Assembly: GCA_045803545.1 (NCBI GenBank)
Contig: JBJMOW010000006.1
Span: 96,001-160,000, forward strand
Length of the DNA stretch: 64,000 bases
Origin: Gemmatimonadaceae bacterium
Lineage (GTDB): Bacteria; Gemmatimonadota; Gemmatimonadetes; Gemmatimonadales; Gemmatimonadaceae
Direction of reading: 5' to 3'
Shown here: one piece after another, positions 7,215-61,192 of the stretch
Layout: each line of letters starts with the position of its first letter
How positions within the stretch are numbered: the first letter of the stretch is position 1
Translations under genes and position numbers: made by a program
Notes under the pieces: model-generated
Databases searched by the model: none
Told to the model about the DNA's origin: nothing
The model's input: only the letters and a program-made list of their open reading frames with translations

Positions 7215-7392
7215 AACTACCGCGCTCGTAGCTGATGGCGGCTGGCTATTAGCTGATGGCTGCCTCCGACCGGACAGATCTCATCGCATAAAGGCGAACT
7301 GAACGCGTTTGCTCTGACTCTATCGCGATCTGTCCCGTCGCTTGCAGCGAATAGCTAATAGCCAGCTGCTATCAGCTAACAGCGCGGCAGTT
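7215..7392. repeat. Long imperfect inverted repeat (hairpin A), ~66-bp arms
   Basis: 7215-7280 is nearly the reverse complement of 7327-7392; arms show 7-nt periodicity. Confidence 0.9.
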
Positions 7393-36620: not shown

Positions 36621-36768
36621 AACGAAAGCCGGGAGCTACCAGCTTAGGGAGCCTATTAGCTCGGAGCACGGTTGTAAGCACGCCCTCATATAAGGTTGCG
36701 CGCACCCAAAAATCAAACCGTGCTCGGCGCTAAGCTGCTCCCTAAGCTGGCAGCTCCCGGCTTTCGTT
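36621..36768. repeat. Long hairpin element D, ~53-bp arms
   Basis: 36621-36673 is nearly the reverse complement of 36716-36768; AGC recurs about every 7 nt. Confidence 0.9.
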
Positions 36769-56773: not shown

Positions 56774-57164
56774 TCGTCACCGAAAAAATCACTGGTGGGA
56801 TGCCATTGACCCTTGCCTGGATCTGTGCGCTGCCCGCGGCGGCTCCGGTGGTGTAGGTCACCGACGACACGCCGCCCTCGACGGTCAGGTTGCTCGTTTC
56901 ACTGACCGAGCCGCCTCCGGAAAGAACTGTCCAGTCGACGGTCACGTTCTTTAGCGAATTACCAAACTGATCGAGTACGATCACTTCAAACGCTACCGGA
57001 AGCGCAGTGTTCGCCGGGCCACTCTGGGTATCGCCAGCGTGTTTGATCAGCACACTCGGGTCGTTGACGTCGACGTTGAGGGTGCAGGCTCCGGCGAAAA
57101 GTGCGATTACGACAGCAGATAGAATCCGGGCAATGGAGATGCGGCGCGGACGGATAAGCTTCAT
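56766..57164 (-). CDS. Ig-like domain lipoprotein
   Basis: Lipobox FAGAC; GDTQSG and VLDQFGN..NVTVDW..SGGG. Confidence 0.75.
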   Translation of the reverse strand: MKLIRPRRISIARILSAVVIALFAGACTLNVDVNDPSVLIKHAGDTQSGPANTALPVAFEVIVLDQFGNSLKNVTVDWTVLSGGGSVSETSNLTVEGGVSSVTYTTGAAAGSAQIQARVNGIPPVIFSVTIT

Positions 57165-57248
57165 CTCGAATCCCTCATGACGGGTGGGTGCGGTAAAGAA
57201 AATTATATCGCGCTGGCGTTTTTCGGAGCGTGCGCTCACCATTCATCG

Positions 57249-57617
57249 GTGCCGCGCAATCCCCTGCCTCGACTCCGTAAACTCGCGCTCTCTTTTCCCG
57301 AAGCACATGAAGTGGAGGCGTGGGGAGAGCCAACGTTCCGGGTCAGGAACAAGCTGTTCGCCATGTATGCGTCGTCCGGCAACCACCACGGTGAGGGTCG
57401 GCCTGCGGTTTGGTGCAAAGCCAAGACAGTGAACCAGCAGCTGATGATCTCCATGGCGCCGCAGAAATTCTTTTCGCCGCCGTACGTTGGTCCAAGTGGA
57501 TGGGTTGGCGTGTGGCTGGACGGCGAGATCGAGTGGGACGACCTGCGGGAAATTCTGCTCGATGGCTATCGAATGACGGCGCCGAAGAAGTTGTTGTCCC
57601 AACTAGGCGACGACTGA
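57249..57617 (+). CDS. MmcQ/YjbR family DNA-binding protein
   Basis: WGEPTFRVRNKLFA and PPYVGPSGWVG. Confidence 0.88.
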   Translation: MPRNPLPRLRKLALSFPEAHEVEAWGEPTFRVRNKLFAMYASSGNHHGEGRPAVWCKAKTVNQQLMISMAPQKFFSPPYVGPSGWVGVWLDGEIEWDDLREILLDGYRMTAPKKLLSQLGDD

Positions 57618-58015
57618 TGGCAGTGCGCGTCGTACGACTCGGCCAGCCTCGCACTAACGGGGAGGGTCTGCGCCTCGGCACCGTGCGCCGTCCACCGCGT
57701 GGCGTGCGCAAGGAGCAATATGCGTCTCTCGATTTCTTCGACGTGTGGATGCCGGAGCTCGCACCGAGCGCGCCACTCGTATCATGGGCGTTGTCGGAGC
57801 CCTGGACCGATAAACGGTGGGCCAAGTACGAGCGCTCATATCGCAGCGAGATGAAGAACCCTCCCGCGGCGCGGTTGCTTTCACTGCTCGCCGCGCTATC
57901 TCGCCAGACGGATTTCTCCGTCGGGTGCTACTGCGAGAATGAATCCCGCTGTCACCGCTCGATCCTGAGAGAGCTGCTCAGAGACGCCGACGCGGACATG
58001 AGAGATTCGGAATGA
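57617..58015 (+). CDS. DUF488 family protein
   Basis: RRPPRGV, WMPELAPS and CYCENESRCHRS. Confidence 0.88.
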   Translation: MAVRVVRLGQPRTNGEGLRLGTVRRPPRGVRKEQYASLDFFDVWMPELAPSAPLVSWALSEPWTDKRWAKYERSYRSEMKNPPAARLLSLLAALSRQTDFSVGCYCENESRCHRSILRELLRDADADMRDSE

Positions 58016-58230
58016 TCAACCTGAACCTTCCGCCCCGCGACGATCATCGACGCCCTGCAAAGAATTCACGTTTCCTGATCGTGGTCATCGTGGCGATGGC
58101 CACGGTCCTCTCACTTCAATACACGTCGCATCCGTTCTTCGGACCGGATAAGACCGCGACGCTCTGGGGAATGTTTGTAGGACTGTTTATTGGGGGATTT
58201 CTGTTTGGATGGCTTCGGAAGCCGTGGTAG
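58012..58230 (+). CDS. Small two-TM hypothetical protein
   Basis: ATGA overlap with the upstream gene; two hydrophobic helices. Confidence 0.6.
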   Translation: MINLNLPPRDDHRRPAKNSRFLIVVIVAMATVLSLQYTSHPFFGPDKTATLWGMFVGLFIGGFLFGWLRKPW

Positions 58231-58392
58231 CTGCGGGAGGACGGCGAACTGACCGAGAGGCTGCGGGAGGAGAGCTAACTGATTGCTGCGAACTGCGAGC
58301 TGGATGAGAGTTGCGGGCTAGTTGCGAGAAGAGGGCTGGTTGCGAGAAGAGGGCTGGTTGCGAGAAGAGGGCTGGTTGCGAGAAGTCAGCTG
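58227..58392. repeat. Left arm of a ~165-bp inverted repeat, with four 18-nt tandem units (GGTTGCGAGAAGAGGGCT-like)
   Basis: Near reverse complement of 58881-59045. Confidence 0.95.
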
Positions 58393-58466
58393 GTTGCCCG
58401 CGACGAACGATGCTACGGGGCGCAAAATGATGATGACAGGTGAATTCATTCCGCTATGCTGTCGGG

Positions 58467-58874
58467 GTGAGTCACTCAAAACCTGCTTACTCGTTCGACG
58501 ACAGCGACCCACTGTCGAAGATGCAGGCGGTACAAATCACGCGCGCCCTGCTTCCGGAATGCTGGGACGACGCGGAGAAGCTGGCGCATAACGAGCTGAC
58601 CAAGAATATCGGCGGACAATTGTATGCTGCGATGGGCTCGATTCTCGCTAATCTCGGTGAGGGTTACTCGAGAAGCTCCGGCCGTGACCGCGCAAAGATG
58701 TTTGAGTACGCGCTAGGCTCCGTCCGCGAGAGCATGATGTGGTACCGGAGCAGCGTCCGCATTCTCGGCCAGCAGACGATAGACAAGCGGCTCGACAAGC
58801 TGGAGCAGGTACGTCGGCTCTTACTAGCAACAATCCCGCGGGAACGGGATCGCGTAATCCGACCAAGACGGTAA
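58467..58874 (+). CDS. Four-helix-bundle protein (23S rRNA-IVP / bAvd-like family)
   Basis: QLYAAMGSILANLGEGYSR...FEYALGSVRE resembles the family pattern QL..A..SI..NIAEG..R...ARGS..E; start could be 58440, 58467 or 58521. Confidence 0.88.
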   Translation: MSHSKPAYSFDDSDPLSKMQAVQITRALLPECWDDAEKLAHNELTKNIGGQLYAAMGSILANLGEGYSRSSGRDRAKMFEYALGSVRESMMWYRSSVRILGQQTIDKRLDKLEQVRRLLLATIPRERDRVIRPRR

Positions 58875-58880
58875 AGTGCG

Positions 58881-59045
58881 CAGCTCTCTTCTCGCAACCA
58901 GCTCTCTTCTCGCAACCAGCCCTCTTCTCGCAGCCAGTTCTCTTCTCGCAGCTAGCCCGCAACTCTCATCCAGCTCGCAGTTCGCAGCAATTAGTTAGCT
59001 CTGCTCCCGCAGCGCAGCCGTCAGATAGGCTCCTCCCGCAGCTAC
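58881..59045. repeat. Right arm of the ~165-bp inverted repeat
   Basis: CTCTTCTCGCA(A/G)C units x4, ending CCTCCCGCAGCTAC. Confidence 0.95.
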
Positions 59046-60370
59046 ACGAGGGATTCGACGCCCTTAGCCGTAACCCGGTGCGAAACAAGAGGCAGTACTT
59101 TCGGCCTTCCCTCGCCAATCACGATTGCCTTCGCCAGAATCGATTCGCCCAGCTTCAGGTCGCTTTCGCTCCGCGCGTGAATTGTCCCCAGCGCATCGCC
59201 CTTGGTGACTCGCACTCCCGGCTTGGTGGTAATAACGAAGCCGACCGCAGGGTCGACGCTGTCTTCCATGTTGCGCCGTCCCCCGCCGAGGGCGATTACG
59301 CCGTAGCCAATCTCCCGCGGCTCGACACGCTGGACGACACCAGATACGGGAGCGAGGAAGTAAGCCTTGTGCGCTGCCTGCGGGAGGCGCTCCGGTTTGG
59401 CGACTACGGAGTCGTCGCCCCCCTGCGCGCGCACAATCTCCCTGAACTTCTCCAGAGCGCGCCCGCTCGTCATCGCATCGATCATCATCGCAGAGGCATC
59501 CTTGCTCGACTTCGCAATGCCTCCCAGCACCAGCATCTCTGCCCCCAGCGCCAGCGTCACTTCGACCAGATCGGCGGGGCCGGCCCCCTTCAGCACGTCG
59601 ATCGATTCGGCAACTTCGAGAGCGTTGCCGCAGGCGCAGCCGAGTGGACGATCCATCGCCGTCAACAGTGCGACGACCGGACAGTCGTGCGCGTCGCCAA
59701 GCTCGATCATCGCGTTGGCCAGCGCGATCTCCTGCTCCAGTTCCGGCATGAATGAGCCTGCCCCACGCTTGATGTCGAGGACAAGTCCCGTCAGTGACTC
59801 CGATATCTTCTTGCTCATGATGCTGGATGCGATCAGCGGGATGACTTCCACCGTCGCCGTTGCATCGCGGAGCGCGTAAAGTTTTCGATCGGCCGGGACG
59901 ATCTCCTCGGTCTGGCCGATCATTGCGCAGCCAATTCTTTCGACCTGGCGCTCCGTCTCGGCGAGCGAGAGCGAAGTGCGGAATCCGGGAATCGACTCGA
60001 GCTTGTCGAGGGTGCCGCCGGTATGGCCCAGCCCACGCCCTGACATCATCGGCACAGCGACGCCCAGCGACGCGATTAGCGGAGCCAGAATGAGTGAGGT
60101 CTTGTCGCCGACGCCACCGGTCGAGTGTTTGTCGATGCGCGGCTTTGCCAGATGAGCGAAATCGAGCCGCTTGCCGCTCGCCAGCATCGCATCCATCAAA
60201 GCGTTCATCTCGCTTCGATCGAGGCCGCGATAGTACACTGCCATCAGGAACGCAGCCATCTGATACTCGGGCACTTTGCCCTCGGAAAAGGCGATCACCA
60301 GCTCGTTGATCTCCTGGGGCTCGAGCCGGCCACCATTTCGTTTGCGCTCGATCAGACGGGGTACGATCAT
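59042..60370 (-). CDS. pdp: Thymidine/pyrimidine-nucleoside phosphorylase
   Basis: DKHSTGGVGDK, SGRGLGHTGGTLDKLESIPGF and SIMSKK. Confidence 0.95.
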   Translation of the reverse strand: MIVPRLIERKRNGGRLEPQEINELVIAFSEGKVPEYQMAAFLMAVYYRGLDRSEMNALMDAMLASGKRLDFAHLAKPRIDKHSTGGVGDKTSLILAPLIASLGVAVPMMSGRGLGHTGGTLDKLESIPGFRTSLSLAETERQVERIGCAMIGQTEEIVPADRKLYALRDATATVEVIPLIASSIMSKKISESLTGLVLDIKRGAGSFMPELEQEIALANAMIELGDAHDCPVVALLTAMDRPLGCACGNALEVAESIDVLKGAGPADLVEVTLALGAEMLVLGGIAKSSKDASAMMIDAMTSGRALEKFREIVRAQGGDDSVVAKPERLPQAAHKAYFLAPVSGVVQRVEPREIGYGVIALGGGRRNMEDSVDPAVGFVITTKPGVRVTKGDALGTIHARSESDLKLGESILAKAIVIGEGRPKVLPLVSHRVTAKGVESLV

Positions 60371-60427
60371 TTAGTGACCGACGGGGTAAACACCATGACC
60401 AACTTCAAACTCGTAATTGGAGCTCAT

Positions 60428-61192
60428 ATGCGCGTCGCCCACCTTGTCTCCGCAGGAATGTTGCTTGTTGCAGTTGGCGCGCGTGCCGGCGCCCAGTCGG
60501 CCGCCGACCACATTGCGCTCGGGGACAAAGAATACGTCGCGATGCACGCTCCCGCCGCCCTCGAGCATTACGAAGCGGCGTTAAAGGAAGATCCCAAGAG
60601 CTACGACGCCTTGTGGAAGGCGTCGCGATCGGCAGTCGATCTCGGTGAGTTCGAGAAGGACGACGCCAAGCGAGACGATTACTTCAAGCGGGGCGAGCTG
60701 TACGCGCGGCGGGCGGTTGAAGCCAATCCCAATGACGCCGAAGGGCATTTCAACCTCGCCCGGGCACTTGGCAGGAACGCGCTGACCCAGAGCCCGCGCG
60801 GTCGCGTGAAGTACGCTTCCGACGTACGAAATCATGCGCTCGAATGCCTGAAATTGAATCCGAAGCATGCGGGCTGCCTGCACGTCATGGGGATGTGGAA
60901 CGCCGAAGTCATGCGACTCAACGGCTTCACGCGAATGATCGCCAAAAACTTCCTTGGCGGAAAAGTCTTCAGCTCGGCGAGCTGGGACGAAGCAAAACGC
61001 TACATGGAGGAGTCGGTGGCGGCAGATCCTGAGCGGATCACCCACCGTGTCGACCTGGCGGGCGTTTATCGGGACACCGGCGACAAGGCTAAGGCGCGCG
61101 CCGAATGGCAGGCAGTGATGAAGCTGCCCAATCGCGACTACAACGACCGCTATTACAAGGGTGAAGCAGACTCGGGGCTAAGGTCGACCTGA
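60428..61192 (+). CDS. Secreted TPR protein
   Basis: Signal peptide; TPR-like helices. Confidence 0.8.
   Translation: MRVAHLVSAGMLLVAVGARAGAQSAADHIALGDKEYVAMHAPAALEHYEAALKEDPKSYDALWKASRSAVDLGEFEKDDAKRDDYFKRGELYARRAVEANPNDAEGHFNLARALGRNALTQSPRGRVKYASDVRNHALECLKLNPKHAGCLHVMGMWNAEVMRLNGFTRMIAKNFLGGKVFSSASWDEAKRYMEESVAADPERITHRVDLAGVYRDTGDKAKARAEWQAVMKLPNRDYNDRYYKGEADSGLRST

What the first reader, a model, noticed from the sequence alone, without database searches (positions are those of the whole stretch)
58227..59045. Four-helix-bundle (bAvd/IVP-like) gene sits in the loop of a ~165-bp hairpin outside any rRNA or DGR: candidate RNA-based element
Seen: the arms 58227-58392 and 58881-59045 are near reverse complements and enclose a single ORF. 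Established: this family includes the proteins encoded inside 23S rRNA intervening sequences, which are excised from a stem by RNase III, and the RNA-binding Avd of diversity-generating retroelements. Seen: no rRNA, reverse transcriptase or transposase is nearby. Inference: this is an IVS-like stem-loop cassette placed between protein-coding genes. It may be excised as a stable RNA, bound by its own product, or mobile.
Basis: partly seen in the sequence, partly recalled or inferred. Interest (0 to 1): 0.85.

Follow-up and report, generated by a model that had tools for sequence, protein, structure and literature searches.

The report
Four-helix-bundle gene in hairpin cassette
A small gene of the family first seen inside ribosomal-RNA "intervening sequences" sits here between two 165-base mirror-image arms, and it is the only gene-carrying copy of a family of hairpin elements that has spread to gene ends in this soil bacterium without any visible transposase.

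Summary
Arms 58227-58392 and 58881-59045 are 89-90% complementary, and the fold gives z = -19. They enclose one ORF that passes the PF05635 and TIGR02436 cut-offs and models as a four-helix bundle (4HB).

It is not a one-off. All 8 paralogs in this Gemmatimonadaceae genome sit between inverted arms, as do 15 of 17 and 28 of 31 relatives' loci.

The arms belong to a repeat family (F3) with 11 loci in this genome. Only this locus carries the 4HB gene. BLAST found one weak match in 60 other species of the genus.

The closest species has a different, younger family (X, about 24 loci). X matches the arms of that species' own 4HB cassette and fills at least four of the slots that F3 fills here, including this junction. 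Other X copies face clean empty sites here, with no target duplication.

RNase III excision is not supported: no RNase III was found in 66 of 66 genomes of the class, and arm mismatches show no RNA-strand bias.

Best reading: a DNA-level hairpin cassette that lands at gene 3' ends, whose protein probably acts on its own arms (inferred).

This scan has met the same design many times on other DNA. My searches found no paper describing it outside rRNA.

The parts
58227..58392 (.). Left arm of the hairpin (family F3). The outer module GCTGCGGGAGGA...AACTGA occurs twice (58230-58252, 58260-58282). The TAG stop of the upstream 72-aa ORF (58228-58230) lies inside the outermost paired bases.
   Evidence: similarity to other F3 loci
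58315..58397 (.). 18-nt tandem array (4.6 copies, consensus GGGCTGGTTGCGAGAAGA) forming the inner left arm
   Evidence: A related strain's contig lacks 21 nt here (table 4).
58433..58460 (+). Sigma-70-like match ATGACA-16-TATGCT inside the loop, ending 6 nt before GTG 58467. A hint only.
   Evidence: Conservation at a fixed distance from the start is weak across 21 cassettes.
58440..58874 (+). Four-helix-bundle protein gene (PF05635 / TIGR02436). Longest ORF 144 aa; probable start GTG 58467 (135 aa, MSHSK...).
   Evidence: A related strain differs at 10 synonymous and 5 non-synonymous codons.
58881..59045 (.). Right arm. 18-nt array 58881-58950 (3.9 copies). The outermost bases include CTA (59042-59044), which is the TAG stop of the thymidine phosphorylase gene on the - strand.
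58012..58230 (+). Left neighbour: 72-aa ORF, membrane-like by eye, with no Pfam or NCBIfam hit, conserved in relatives. It follows a DUF488-N3a gene (57410-58015).
59042..60370 (-). Right neighbour: thymidine / pyrimidine-nucleoside phosphorylase, convergent with the 72-aa ORF
7215..7392 (.). Gene-less hairpin of family F1 (arms 66 nt, loop 46 nt). F1 also forms the arms of the paralogous 4HB cassette L003.
36621..36768 (.). Gene-less hairpin of family F2 (arms 53 nt, loop 42 nt). By eye, F2 also forms the arms of the frameshifted 4HB cassette L008.

Best explanation
The locus is the gene-carrying member of a lineage-specific family (F3) of hairpin elements, and it behaves as a DNA-level insertable cassette. 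It is the counterpart, outside rRNA, of ORF-bearing rRNA intervening sequences. SHOWN: (1) 4HB genes of this family are bracketed by inverted arms in this genome and in relatives. (2) The same arms recur without a gene at other gene ends of the same genome. (3) Hairpin families are lineage-specific and match the arms of a 4HB cassette resident in the same genome: F3 with this gene here, and X with L026 in the sister species G014. (4) New copies lie just after stop codons or beside intrinsic terminators, and four filled-versus-empty comparisons show no target duplication. (5) Different families occupy the same slots in different species. (6) Slots that hold a 4HB cassette in some species hold a gene-less hairpin of the same arm type here. 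(7) The protein is conserved. INFERRED: insertion is directed by DNA structure, towards hairpin-prone gene ends and existing hairpins. The 4HB protein, a relative of the pentameric XCC0516/BT_0352 proteins and fold-similar to DGR Avd, recognises its own arms as a folded nucleic acid. It thereby promotes copying or maintenance of the cognate hairpin population, with host enzymes doing the chemistry. The stop-rich arms and the long stem keep the insertion from disturbing the two converging neighbour genes. RNase III processing plays no part in this lineage.
For: Bracketing by arms:
- 7 of 7 other paralogs in this genome have flanking inverted repeats of 29-104 nt.
- 15 of 17 judgeable loci from genus relatives have them.
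- 28 of 31 loci from public genomes have them.

Shared arms:
- The left arm here is 98/120 identical to gene-less hairpin C5:161642 and 71/86 identical to C2:1133710.
- F3 gives 16 matches, which make 11 loci, in this genome. It gives 1 weak match in 60 other genus genomes.

Cognate pairing in the sister species G014:
- G014's hairpins at this very junction and at a second junction are 77/93 and 79/97 identical to the arms of G014's own 4HB cassette L026.
- Family X has 42 matches in G014, up to 97% identical to that arm.
- X has none in this genome at E <= 1e-3.

Insertion sites:
- X-filled sites face gaps of 1, 4, 6 and 23 nt here, next to stop codons or terminators, with no duplication.
- 20 of 22 gene ends found within 60 nt of an element edge are stop codons (crude ORF filter).

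Shared slots: F3 here and X in G014 at the tm72/pdp junction and at the C5:161642, C2:1069679 and C2:1133710 slots.

Gene-bearing versus gene-less at one slot: L003-like 4HB cassettes of 3 species and of 2 further species lie where this genome has gene-less F1 hairpins.

Pairing kept while sequence drifts:
- 17 of 55 F1 stem pairs carry changes on both sides, and 0 of 500 shuffles reach the covariation score.
- Between orthologous hairpins of the two species, 43 pairs changed on both sides against 19.5 expected; 28 of the 43 still pair.

Protein: family cut-offs passed. The profile hits 2gsc at 9e-19 and 2rld at 3e-11. The model has pLDDT 84 with four helices, and its best fold matches are 2rld, 2gsc and the Avd chains of 8ub7/8ub8. 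A related strain differs at 10 synonymous and 5 non-synonymous codons.

No rival mobiliser found: no Y1 transposase and no reverse transcriptase in the genome, and no such family among the neighbouring ORFs scanned.
Against: - No binding, cutting or copying activity of the protein is shown. Its link to the arms is co-location and co-distribution, which linkage and common descent alone could produce.
- Most hairpins are old and stable rather than jumping. 11 of 13 G014 F1 hairpins sit at sites orthologous to F1 hairpins here.
- The arms also bracket other genes: a 128-aa ORF with no family hit, on F3 arms, and a SnoaL-like gene. So the 4HB gene is not an obligatory cargo.
- F3 copies are only 74-89% alike, and a degenerate F3-like arm is visible by eye in G014. 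F3 is therefore older than the species split, and its 'absence' elsewhere is partly decay.
- The genome is 93% complete with no rRNA assembled. A mobilising enzyme or rRNA-borne copies could be missed.
- The comparison of cognate families rests on two genomes.
Confidence: 0.5

Rival explanations
1. The hairpins are host-serving structures at gene 3' ends, such as bidirectional terminators or 3'-end protectors of mRNA. They arise and are kept by selection or by repair and slippage processes. The 4HB gene is only a frequent passenger that tolerates, or benefits from, life in an insulated loop.
For: - Elements abut stop codons (20 of 22).
- New copies lie beside intrinsic terminators.
- 11 of 13 F1 hairpins are conserved in place between two species, and pairing is kept by an excess of compensatory changes.
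- The junction at C5:161642 holds some hairpin in all 5 genomes compared.
- Other genes can sit in the loop.
Against: - It does not explain why each genome's young hairpin family matches the arms of a 4HB cassette resident in that genome.
- It does not explain why 6 of the 12 gene-sized local inverted repeats in the genome hold this one small family.
- It does not explain why whole families replace each other at the same slots.
- The scan found no terminator-like T-run hairpin between 58000 and 59200.
Confidence: 0.25
2. This is an RNA-level intervening-sequence-like element. Read-through RNA folds into the long stem, RNase III cuts it, and a stable RNA or mRNA is released and bound by its own product.
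For: - The + strand RNA would fold very stably.
- ORF-bearing rRNA intervening sequences are cut from a terminal stem by RNase III in Coxiella (PMC4990558, passages read).
- One 151-nt contig of a soil metatranscriptome is identical to 58667-58817. This is a weak hint, and DNA carry-over is not excluded.
Against: - No RNase III in this genome by PF14622, TIGR02191, PF00636 or tblastn.
- 1 of 61 genomes of the order has it, on a 1.5-kb contig.
- 0 of 66 genomes of the class have it, against 14 of 15 elsewhere in the phylum.
- Arm mismatches are not biased to sense-strand G:U: 95 against 83, with 133 transversions.
- A promoter-like site inside the loop would give an mRNA without the left arm.
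Confidence: 0.07
3. The inverted arms act as a recombination switch. Exchange between them flips the enclosed gene, so the cassette is an invertible expression element.
For: The ORF enclosed by F3 arms at C4:1137708 is inverted relative to its flanks when compared with 4 of 4 relatives.
Against: No strand-changing joints were seen over this locus in 4 runs, although those runs are contigs and cannot show rare forms. Flipping does not explain the gene-less copies or the family turnover.
Confidence: 0.08

Closest known systems
ORF-bearing intervening sequences of 23S rRNA (Leptospira, Coxiella burnetii S23p; PMC4990558, passages read)
   Same: The same protein family lies in the loop of a stem formed by terminal inverted repeats. 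The insert carries no transposase and has long been suspected of being a mobile-element remnant.
   Different: Here the insert lies between two protein genes, not in an rRNA helix. The arms are 165 nt of 18-nt repeats, against a 28-bp stem in Coxiella. Gene-less sister copies populate other gene ends. The lineage has no detectable RNase III, the enzyme that excises intervening sequences.
REPIN-RAYT systems (Bertels & Rainey 2011, PMC3116915, abstract read)
   Same: Populations of extragenic hairpin-forming inverted-repeat elements are each tied to a gene that is itself flanked by the same repeats. The hairpin is retained while the sequence drifts.
   Different: The associated protein is a ~120-140-aa four-helix bundle, not a Y1 tyrosine transposase. 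PF01797 was not found in this genome. The arms are long and built of 7- or 18-nt units rather than 20-40-nt REPs.
Avd accessory protein of diversity-generating retroelements (DGRs)
   Same: Fold-level similarity: 8ub7/8ub8 Avd chains match at TM 0.80-0.82, rmsd 1.9-2.4. DGR homing needs a DNA hairpin or cruciform whose stem structure matters but whose sequence does not (PMC3240598, abstract read).
   Different: There is no reverse transcriptase in the genome and no template or variable repeat pair. The family profile did not reach Avd by sequence at E <= 1.
MITEs and their parent insertion sequences
   Same: Short non-coding copies share terminal inverted repeats with a longer gene-carrying copy, and expansions are lineage-specific.
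   Different: Four filled-versus-empty sites show no target-site duplication, and there is no transposase. The arms make up nearly the whole element and pair along their full length.

Membership tests
PF05635 / TIGR02436 four-helix-bundle ('23S rRNA intervening sequence protein') family | Score above the curated HMM cut-offs | tested here: met
   PF05635 37.9 bits against 33.8; TIGR02436 47.3 bits against 24
PF05635 / TIGR02436 four-helix-bundle ('23S rRNA intervening sequence protein') family | Four-helix-bundle fold like XCC0516 (2gsc) and BT_0352 (2rld) | tested here: met
   The profile of 7 paralogs hits 2gsc at 9e-19 and 2rld at 3e-11. The AlphaFold model has pLDDT 84.1 with four long helices. 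Foldseek top hits are 2rld (TMt 0.89) and 2gsc (TMt 0.84). The pentameric assembly was not tested.
PF05635 / TIGR02436 four-helix-bundle ('23S rRNA intervening sequence protein') family | Conserved polar motif reported as GxxRxxxSxxxNxxE (PMC3936711, passage read) | tested here: inconclusive
   Q60, A64, S67, N71, E74 and G75 are invariant among the 7 paralogs. The S...N..E part is present. In the alignment, the residue four before S67 is A here and R in the four other-clade paralogs.
rRNA intervening sequence (IVS) | Inserted in a helix of 23S or 16S rRNA | tested here: not met
   Flanked by a 72-aa ORF and thymidine phosphorylase. No Rfam family in the window. No LSU rRNA is assembled in this genome, so rRNA-borne copies cannot be excluded.
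rRNA intervening sequence (IVS) | Terminal inverted repeats form a stem that encloses the ORF | tested here: met
rRNA intervening sequence (IVS) | Excised from the precursor by RNase III | tested here: not met
   The enzyme was not found in this genome or in 66 of 66 genomes of the class. Cleavage itself is not testable with these tools.
Diversity-generating retroelement (Avd) | Adjacent reverse transcriptase and a template / variable repeat pair | tested here: not met
   PF00078 has no match in the genome, and the neighbouring ORFs scanned are housekeeping genes. The repeat scan of 57000-60500 shows the hairpin arms, their internal repeats and short weak repeats of chance size.
REPIN-RAYT | Y1 (IS200/IS605-like) tyrosine transposase flanked by the repeats | tested here: not met
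   PF01797 has no match in the genome, which is 93% complete
REPIN-RAYT | A hairpin-forming repeat population that shares its sequence with the flanks of a single associated gene | tested here: met
   F3: 11 loci, one of them with the 4HB gene. X in G014: about 24 loci, with one 4HB cassette identified on X arms.
MITE / insertion sequence | Target-site duplication flanking the terminal inverted repeats | tested here: not met
   Four filled (G014) versus empty (this genome) junctions show none. This was tested on family X, not on F3 itself.
MITE / insertion sequence | Transposase gene in the full-length copy | tested here: not met
   The only family-sized ORF in the loop is the four-helix-bundle gene

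The most novel reading that the evidence does not exclude
Four-helix-bundle proteins of the PF05635/TIGR02436 family are the trans-acting factor of a new class of mobile hairpin elements. These elements have no transposase and insert by DNA structure. Each protein lineage maintains and spreads its own cognate population of gene-less hairpins at gene ends, with the logic of RAYT-REPIN but a different protein. The ORF-bearing intervening sequences of rRNA, and the short-period (heptamer-type) repeat hairpins of many bacteria, would then be products of the same system.
Probability: 0.35. Interest if true: 0.9.

Novelty: new variant of a known kind. Interest (0 to 1): 0.72.

Why it matters
The protein family is widespread and has solved structures, yet a 2024 paper still calls it functionally uncharacterised (PMC11270868, passage read). 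Its only described context is the rRNA intervening sequence, whose origin has been open since the 1990s.

This locus and its relatives show a gene-plus-arms unit that lives outside rRNA. It has gene-less copies that share its arms. The families turn over between sister species at the same slots, and no transposase is present. That turns "what is this protein for" into a testable question: does it recognise its own hairpin, and does the hairpin population depend on it?

It also shows that the RNase III story cannot be general, because this whole class of bacteria appears to lack the enzyme.

Tried and rejected
- **RNase III model.** Searched three HMMs and tblastn in this genome, then the order and the phylum. 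The enzyme was not found in the class.
- **G:U wobble strand-bias test** on 44 distinct cassettes (7 duplicates dropped): 95 sense against 83 antisense, p = 0.41. This gives no support for an RNA stem under selection, though power is low for young arms.
- **Public reads**. All four runs are contigs, with no joints and no read ends. One identical 151-nt contig in an RNA library lies inside the ORF. That does not show transcription.
- **Single-sequence PDB search.** No hit at E <= 0.01; the profile was needed.
- **PADLOC and PHROGs.** No hit for two 4HB paralogs.
- **The search for related loci with all 7 paralogs** was not possible, because no conserved stretch exists. Rerun with the 3 close ones.
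- **Internal promoter.** One sigma-70-like match, but only weak conservation across 21 cassettes.
- **Homology of this element's arms to the G014 hairpin at the same junction.** Rejected: at most 22 nt align.
- **G046 hairpin at the same junction against the arms of paralog L001.** Only a 21-nt block matches. Not used.
- **Idea that arms are long here because RNase III is absent.** Genomes with the enzyme gave shorter arms: 17-34 nt in a Prolixibacteraceae genome, 21-31 nt in G129, 19 nt in a Chloroflexota genome. That is three lineages only, RNase III was tested here only in G129, and earlier notes of this scan report long arms elsewhere. Left as a hint.
- **Literature.** Searches found no paper describing these cassettes outside rRNA. 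The library lacks most subscription journals. The Ralph & McClelland papers were seen only as citations.
Full report
**1. The observation**

The two arms are real and lie at the stated coordinates.
- The repeat finder gives a 144-nt core, 58249-58392 / 58881-59024, at 90% complementarity. It also gives a perfect 15-nt outer pair, 58227-58241 / 59031-59045.
- A genome-wide self-BLAST joins them into 166-nt arms at 89.2% with a 488-nt loop.
- The + strand RNA would fold at -515 kcal/mol, z = -19.4 against shuffles.
- The inner halves of both arms are 18-nt tandem repeats. The outer module is itself duplicated (D4).
- The loop holds one ORF of family size, 58440-58874. It passes the curated cut-offs of PF05635 and TIGR02436.
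- A model built on 7 paralogs is a four-helix bundle (pLDDT 84). Its best structural matches are BT_0352 (2rld) and XCC0516 (2gsc), followed by the Avd chains of the DGR ribonucleoprotein.
- The neighbours are YjbR, DUF488-N3a, a conserved 72-aa ORF, and a convergent thymidine phosphorylase. No transposase or reverse-transcriptase family matches the ORFs scanned between 53.8 and 63 kb.
- No Rfam family is matched in the window.
- The outermost paired bases contain the TAG stops of both converging genes: GTAG...CTAC.

**2. It is one of many**

The window lies in a 3.7-Mb, 93%-complete assembly. Public relatives of its protein are named Gemmatimonadaceae.

The genome has 8 TIGR02436 loci, one of them frameshifted. 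All 7 others also lie between inverted repeats of 29-104 nt, each with a different sequence.

| Sample | Loci with arms far above shuffles |
|---|---|
| Genus relatives, both flanks available | 15 of 17 (3 more cut by contig ends) |
| Public genomes, analysable | 28 of 31 |

In a Prolixibacteraceae chromosome the 8 family members have shorter arms of 17-34 nt, built of short-period repeats. Their scores are 11-22 against shuffle maxima of 10-12.

Conversely, a census of all local inverted repeats in this genome found 30 loci. Of the 12 with gene-sized loops, 6 hold this one small gene family. The other 18 are gene-less hairpins with loops of 42-129 nt.

**3. Gene-less copies share the arms**

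The gene-less hairpins fall into families, and each family matches the arms of a 4HB cassette in the same genome.
- For this locus (family F3), the left arm is 98/120 identical to hairpin C5:161642, which lies 6.6 kb downstream, just beyond the window. It is 71/86 identical to C2:1133710.
- A BLAST of the arm finds 16 matches in this genome. They make 11 loci: this one, one that encloses a 128-aa ORF with no family hit, six hairpins and three single arms.
- The same BLAST finds a single weak match in 60 other species of the genus.
- Only this locus carries the 4HB gene.

**4. Comparison with the sister species**

G014 is the closest genome, with 88% identity in thymidine phosphorylase. It keeps the gene order YjbR-DUF488-72aa / pdp. 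At this junction it has a 230-nt gene-less hairpin whose sequence is unrelated to F3. Other relatives have 2-44 nt there, and one has a 276-nt hairpin.

The G014 hairpin belongs to a family I call X.
- It is 84% identical to the hairpin G014 carries at the junction where this genome has the F3 hairpin C5:161642.
- Both are 81-83% identical to the arms of G014's own 4HB cassette L026. The L026 protein is only 56% identical to the one here, whereas the two other clade members form 85-86% orthologous pairs.
- X has 42 matches, about 24 loci, in G014, many 92-97% identical to the L026 arm.
- X has none in this genome.

So each species has its own hairpin family, matched to the arms of its own 4HB cassette.

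**5. Where the elements land**

I compared 13 X loci with this genome.
- Four face gaps of 1, 4, 6 and 23 nt here. They lie between two converging stop codons, directly after an intrinsic terminator, or between a stop codon and a terminator. None shows a target duplication.
- Two lie exactly where this genome has F3 elements, C2:1069679 and C2:1133710.
- Three lie where it has F3-like remnants, judged by eye.

With the two junctions above, at least four slots carry F3 here and X in G014. By my own rough arithmetic, 11 and about 24 loci scattered at random among a few thousand intergenic regions would be expected to share about 0.1 slot. Either both families aim at the same structures, or the young family overwrites older hairpins.

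In this genome, 20 of 22 gene ends found within 60 nt of an element edge are stop codons (the ORF filter is crude and misses small genes). The outer 75 nt of the arms carry stops in all three inward frames in 18 of 50 arms, against 4.6% of random 75-mers.

**6. Old hairpins persist and keep pairing**

Family F1 forms the arms of paralog L003.
- It has 26 BLAST matches here and 25 in G014, 1-3 weak ones in three genomes, and none in the other 56.
- All four of those other genomes are among the six with the closest L003-type proteins, at 66-75% identity.
- 11 of 13 G014 F1 hairpins lie at sites orthologous to F1 hairpins here, so most copies predate the species split.
- In 10 copies from this genome, 17 of 55 stem pairs carry changes on both sides. 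No shuffle of 500 reaches the covariation score, and slid controls give 3-6 such pairs.
- Between 9 orthologous pairs, 43 stem pairs changed on both sides against 19.5 expected, and 28 of the 43 still pair. Thirteen of those 28 come from one pair.

Pairing is therefore maintained, by selection or by copying between arms.

The L003-type cassette itself is orthologous between the two species, at 79% over 3.35 kb. In G054, G075 and G021 it sits at the slot where this genome has the gene-less F1 hairpin C2:1175432. In G065 and G069 it sits at a slot where this genome has another gene-less F1 hairpin, near C2:202000. Gene-bearing and gene-less forms thus alternate at the same slots.

**7. What it is not**

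- No RNase III was found in this genome with three models or with tblastn.
- 1 of 61 genomes of the order, all at least 90% complete, has it, and that hit is on a 1.5-kb contig.
- 0 of 66 genomes of the class have it, several of them one-contig assemblies, against 14 of 15 genomes in other classes of the phylum.
- Mismatches between arms are not biased towards sense-strand G:U: 95 against 83, with 133 transversions.

The genome also has no Y1 transposase and no reverse transcriptase.

Public soil runs hold the locus only as fragmentary contigs. They show a related strain whose inner left arm is 21 nt shorter and whose 4HB gene differs at 10 synonymous and 5 non-synonymous codons. They show no joints. 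One identical contig in an RNA library is not evidence of transcription.

**8. How it most likely works**

Shown: a gene-plus-arms unit; gene-less copies with the same arms; lineage-specific families that match the resident cassette; insertion at stops and terminators without duplication; reuse of slots; maintained pairing; a conserved protein.

Inferred:
- The element is recognised and propagated as a folded nucleic acid.
- The 4HB protein is the specificity factor for its own arms.
- Host replication or repair enzymes do the chemistry.
- The stop-rich arms and the stem insulate the neighbours.

The logic resembles REPIN-RAYT (PMC3116915, abstract) but with a non-transposase protein. Two observations make nucleic-acid structure recognition a plausible activity but do not show it: the fold kinship to Avd, and the DGR requirement for a target hairpin whose structure matters but whose sequence does not (PMC3240598, abstract).

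The main rival is that the hairpins are host terminator-like structures and the gene is a passenger. That explains their stability and placement. It does not explain the cognate family-to-cassette matches.

**9. Novelty and earlier notes**

Four literature searches and the passages I read gave the following.
- The family is described as rRNA-intervening-sequence-encoded and functionally uncharacterised.
- It is scattered through cas loci, for example between cmr3 and cmr2.
- It is suspected to be a transposon remnant.
- No paper in the library describes hairpin cassettes outside rRNA or their gene-less copies.

This scan's own notes report the same design many times: 128 findings hold my search words, in at least 125 genomes. 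I reached the same reading independently before looking them up.

I add here:
- the reciprocal F3/X comparison with a sister species;
- filled-versus-empty junctions without duplication;
- slot sharing between families;
- alternation of gene-bearing and gene-less forms at orthologous slots;
- the absence of RNase III from the class.

Counts include two genomes marked unpublished (G055, G070). No claim depends on them.

Noticed in passing
whole genome G000 and its class (not a window feature): Canonical RNase III (TIGR02191) was not found in 66 of 66 genomes of the same class, including this genome, the rest at least 90% complete. It was found in 14 of 15 genomes of other classes of the phylum. 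A review says RNase III is highly conserved across bacteria (PMC3071783, passage read). One search returned two papers; passages read in one (PMC3071783) do not state this loss, and the other was not read.
   Followed up: partly
G000 C4:1137708-1138414 (locus L122 / L139): F3 arms of 109 nt (91% complementary, with 18-nt repeats) enclose a 128-aa ORF that has no Pfam hit and looks membrane-like by eye. The ORF is inverted relative to its flanks compared with 4 of 4 relatives. G014 has only a degenerate F3-like arm beside it.
   Followed up: partly
G000 C2:39095-40002 (locus L123): Another hairpin cassette, with arms of 145 nt at 77%, encloses a SnoaL-like 192-aa ORF instead of a 4HB gene.
   Followed up: partly
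G000 C4:437426-437831 and C4:1271338-1271707: Inverted GGGAAGC-type heptamer arrays lie inside long open reading frames. By eye, the first pair brackets what looks like the subunit-binding domain between linkers of an acyltransferase E2-like protein. So heptamer arms can sit in coding linkers.
   Followed up: no
window 7215-7392 and nine other G000 loci (alignment A3): Most gene-less F1 hairpins share a conserved loop of about 47 nt (consensus ...CATNGCATAAAGGCGAACAGAACGC.TTTTCTCTGACTC...), found in both orientations relative to the genome. It has no Rfam match in the window.
   Followed up: no
loci L170, L171, L172 (G010, G001, G041) at the junction orthologous to G000 C5:161642: These three species carry larger hairpins, in gaps of 265-461 nt. 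The arms are 70-80 nt in G010 and G001 and weaker (42 nt aligned) in G041. By eye, their inner region of roughly 100-300 nt is partly conserved between species. That region might be a small RNA or ORF.
   Followed up: no
G000 C6:61266-61864 (loci L008/L009): The 4HB gene on F2 arms is split by a frameshift into two reading frames, although its 67-nt arms are still 91% complementary.
   Followed up: partly
window 58381-58396: A contig of a related strain in a soil metagenome lacks 21 nt of the inner left arm, about one 18-nt unit. So the arm repeat number varies between strains (table 4).
   Followed up: no
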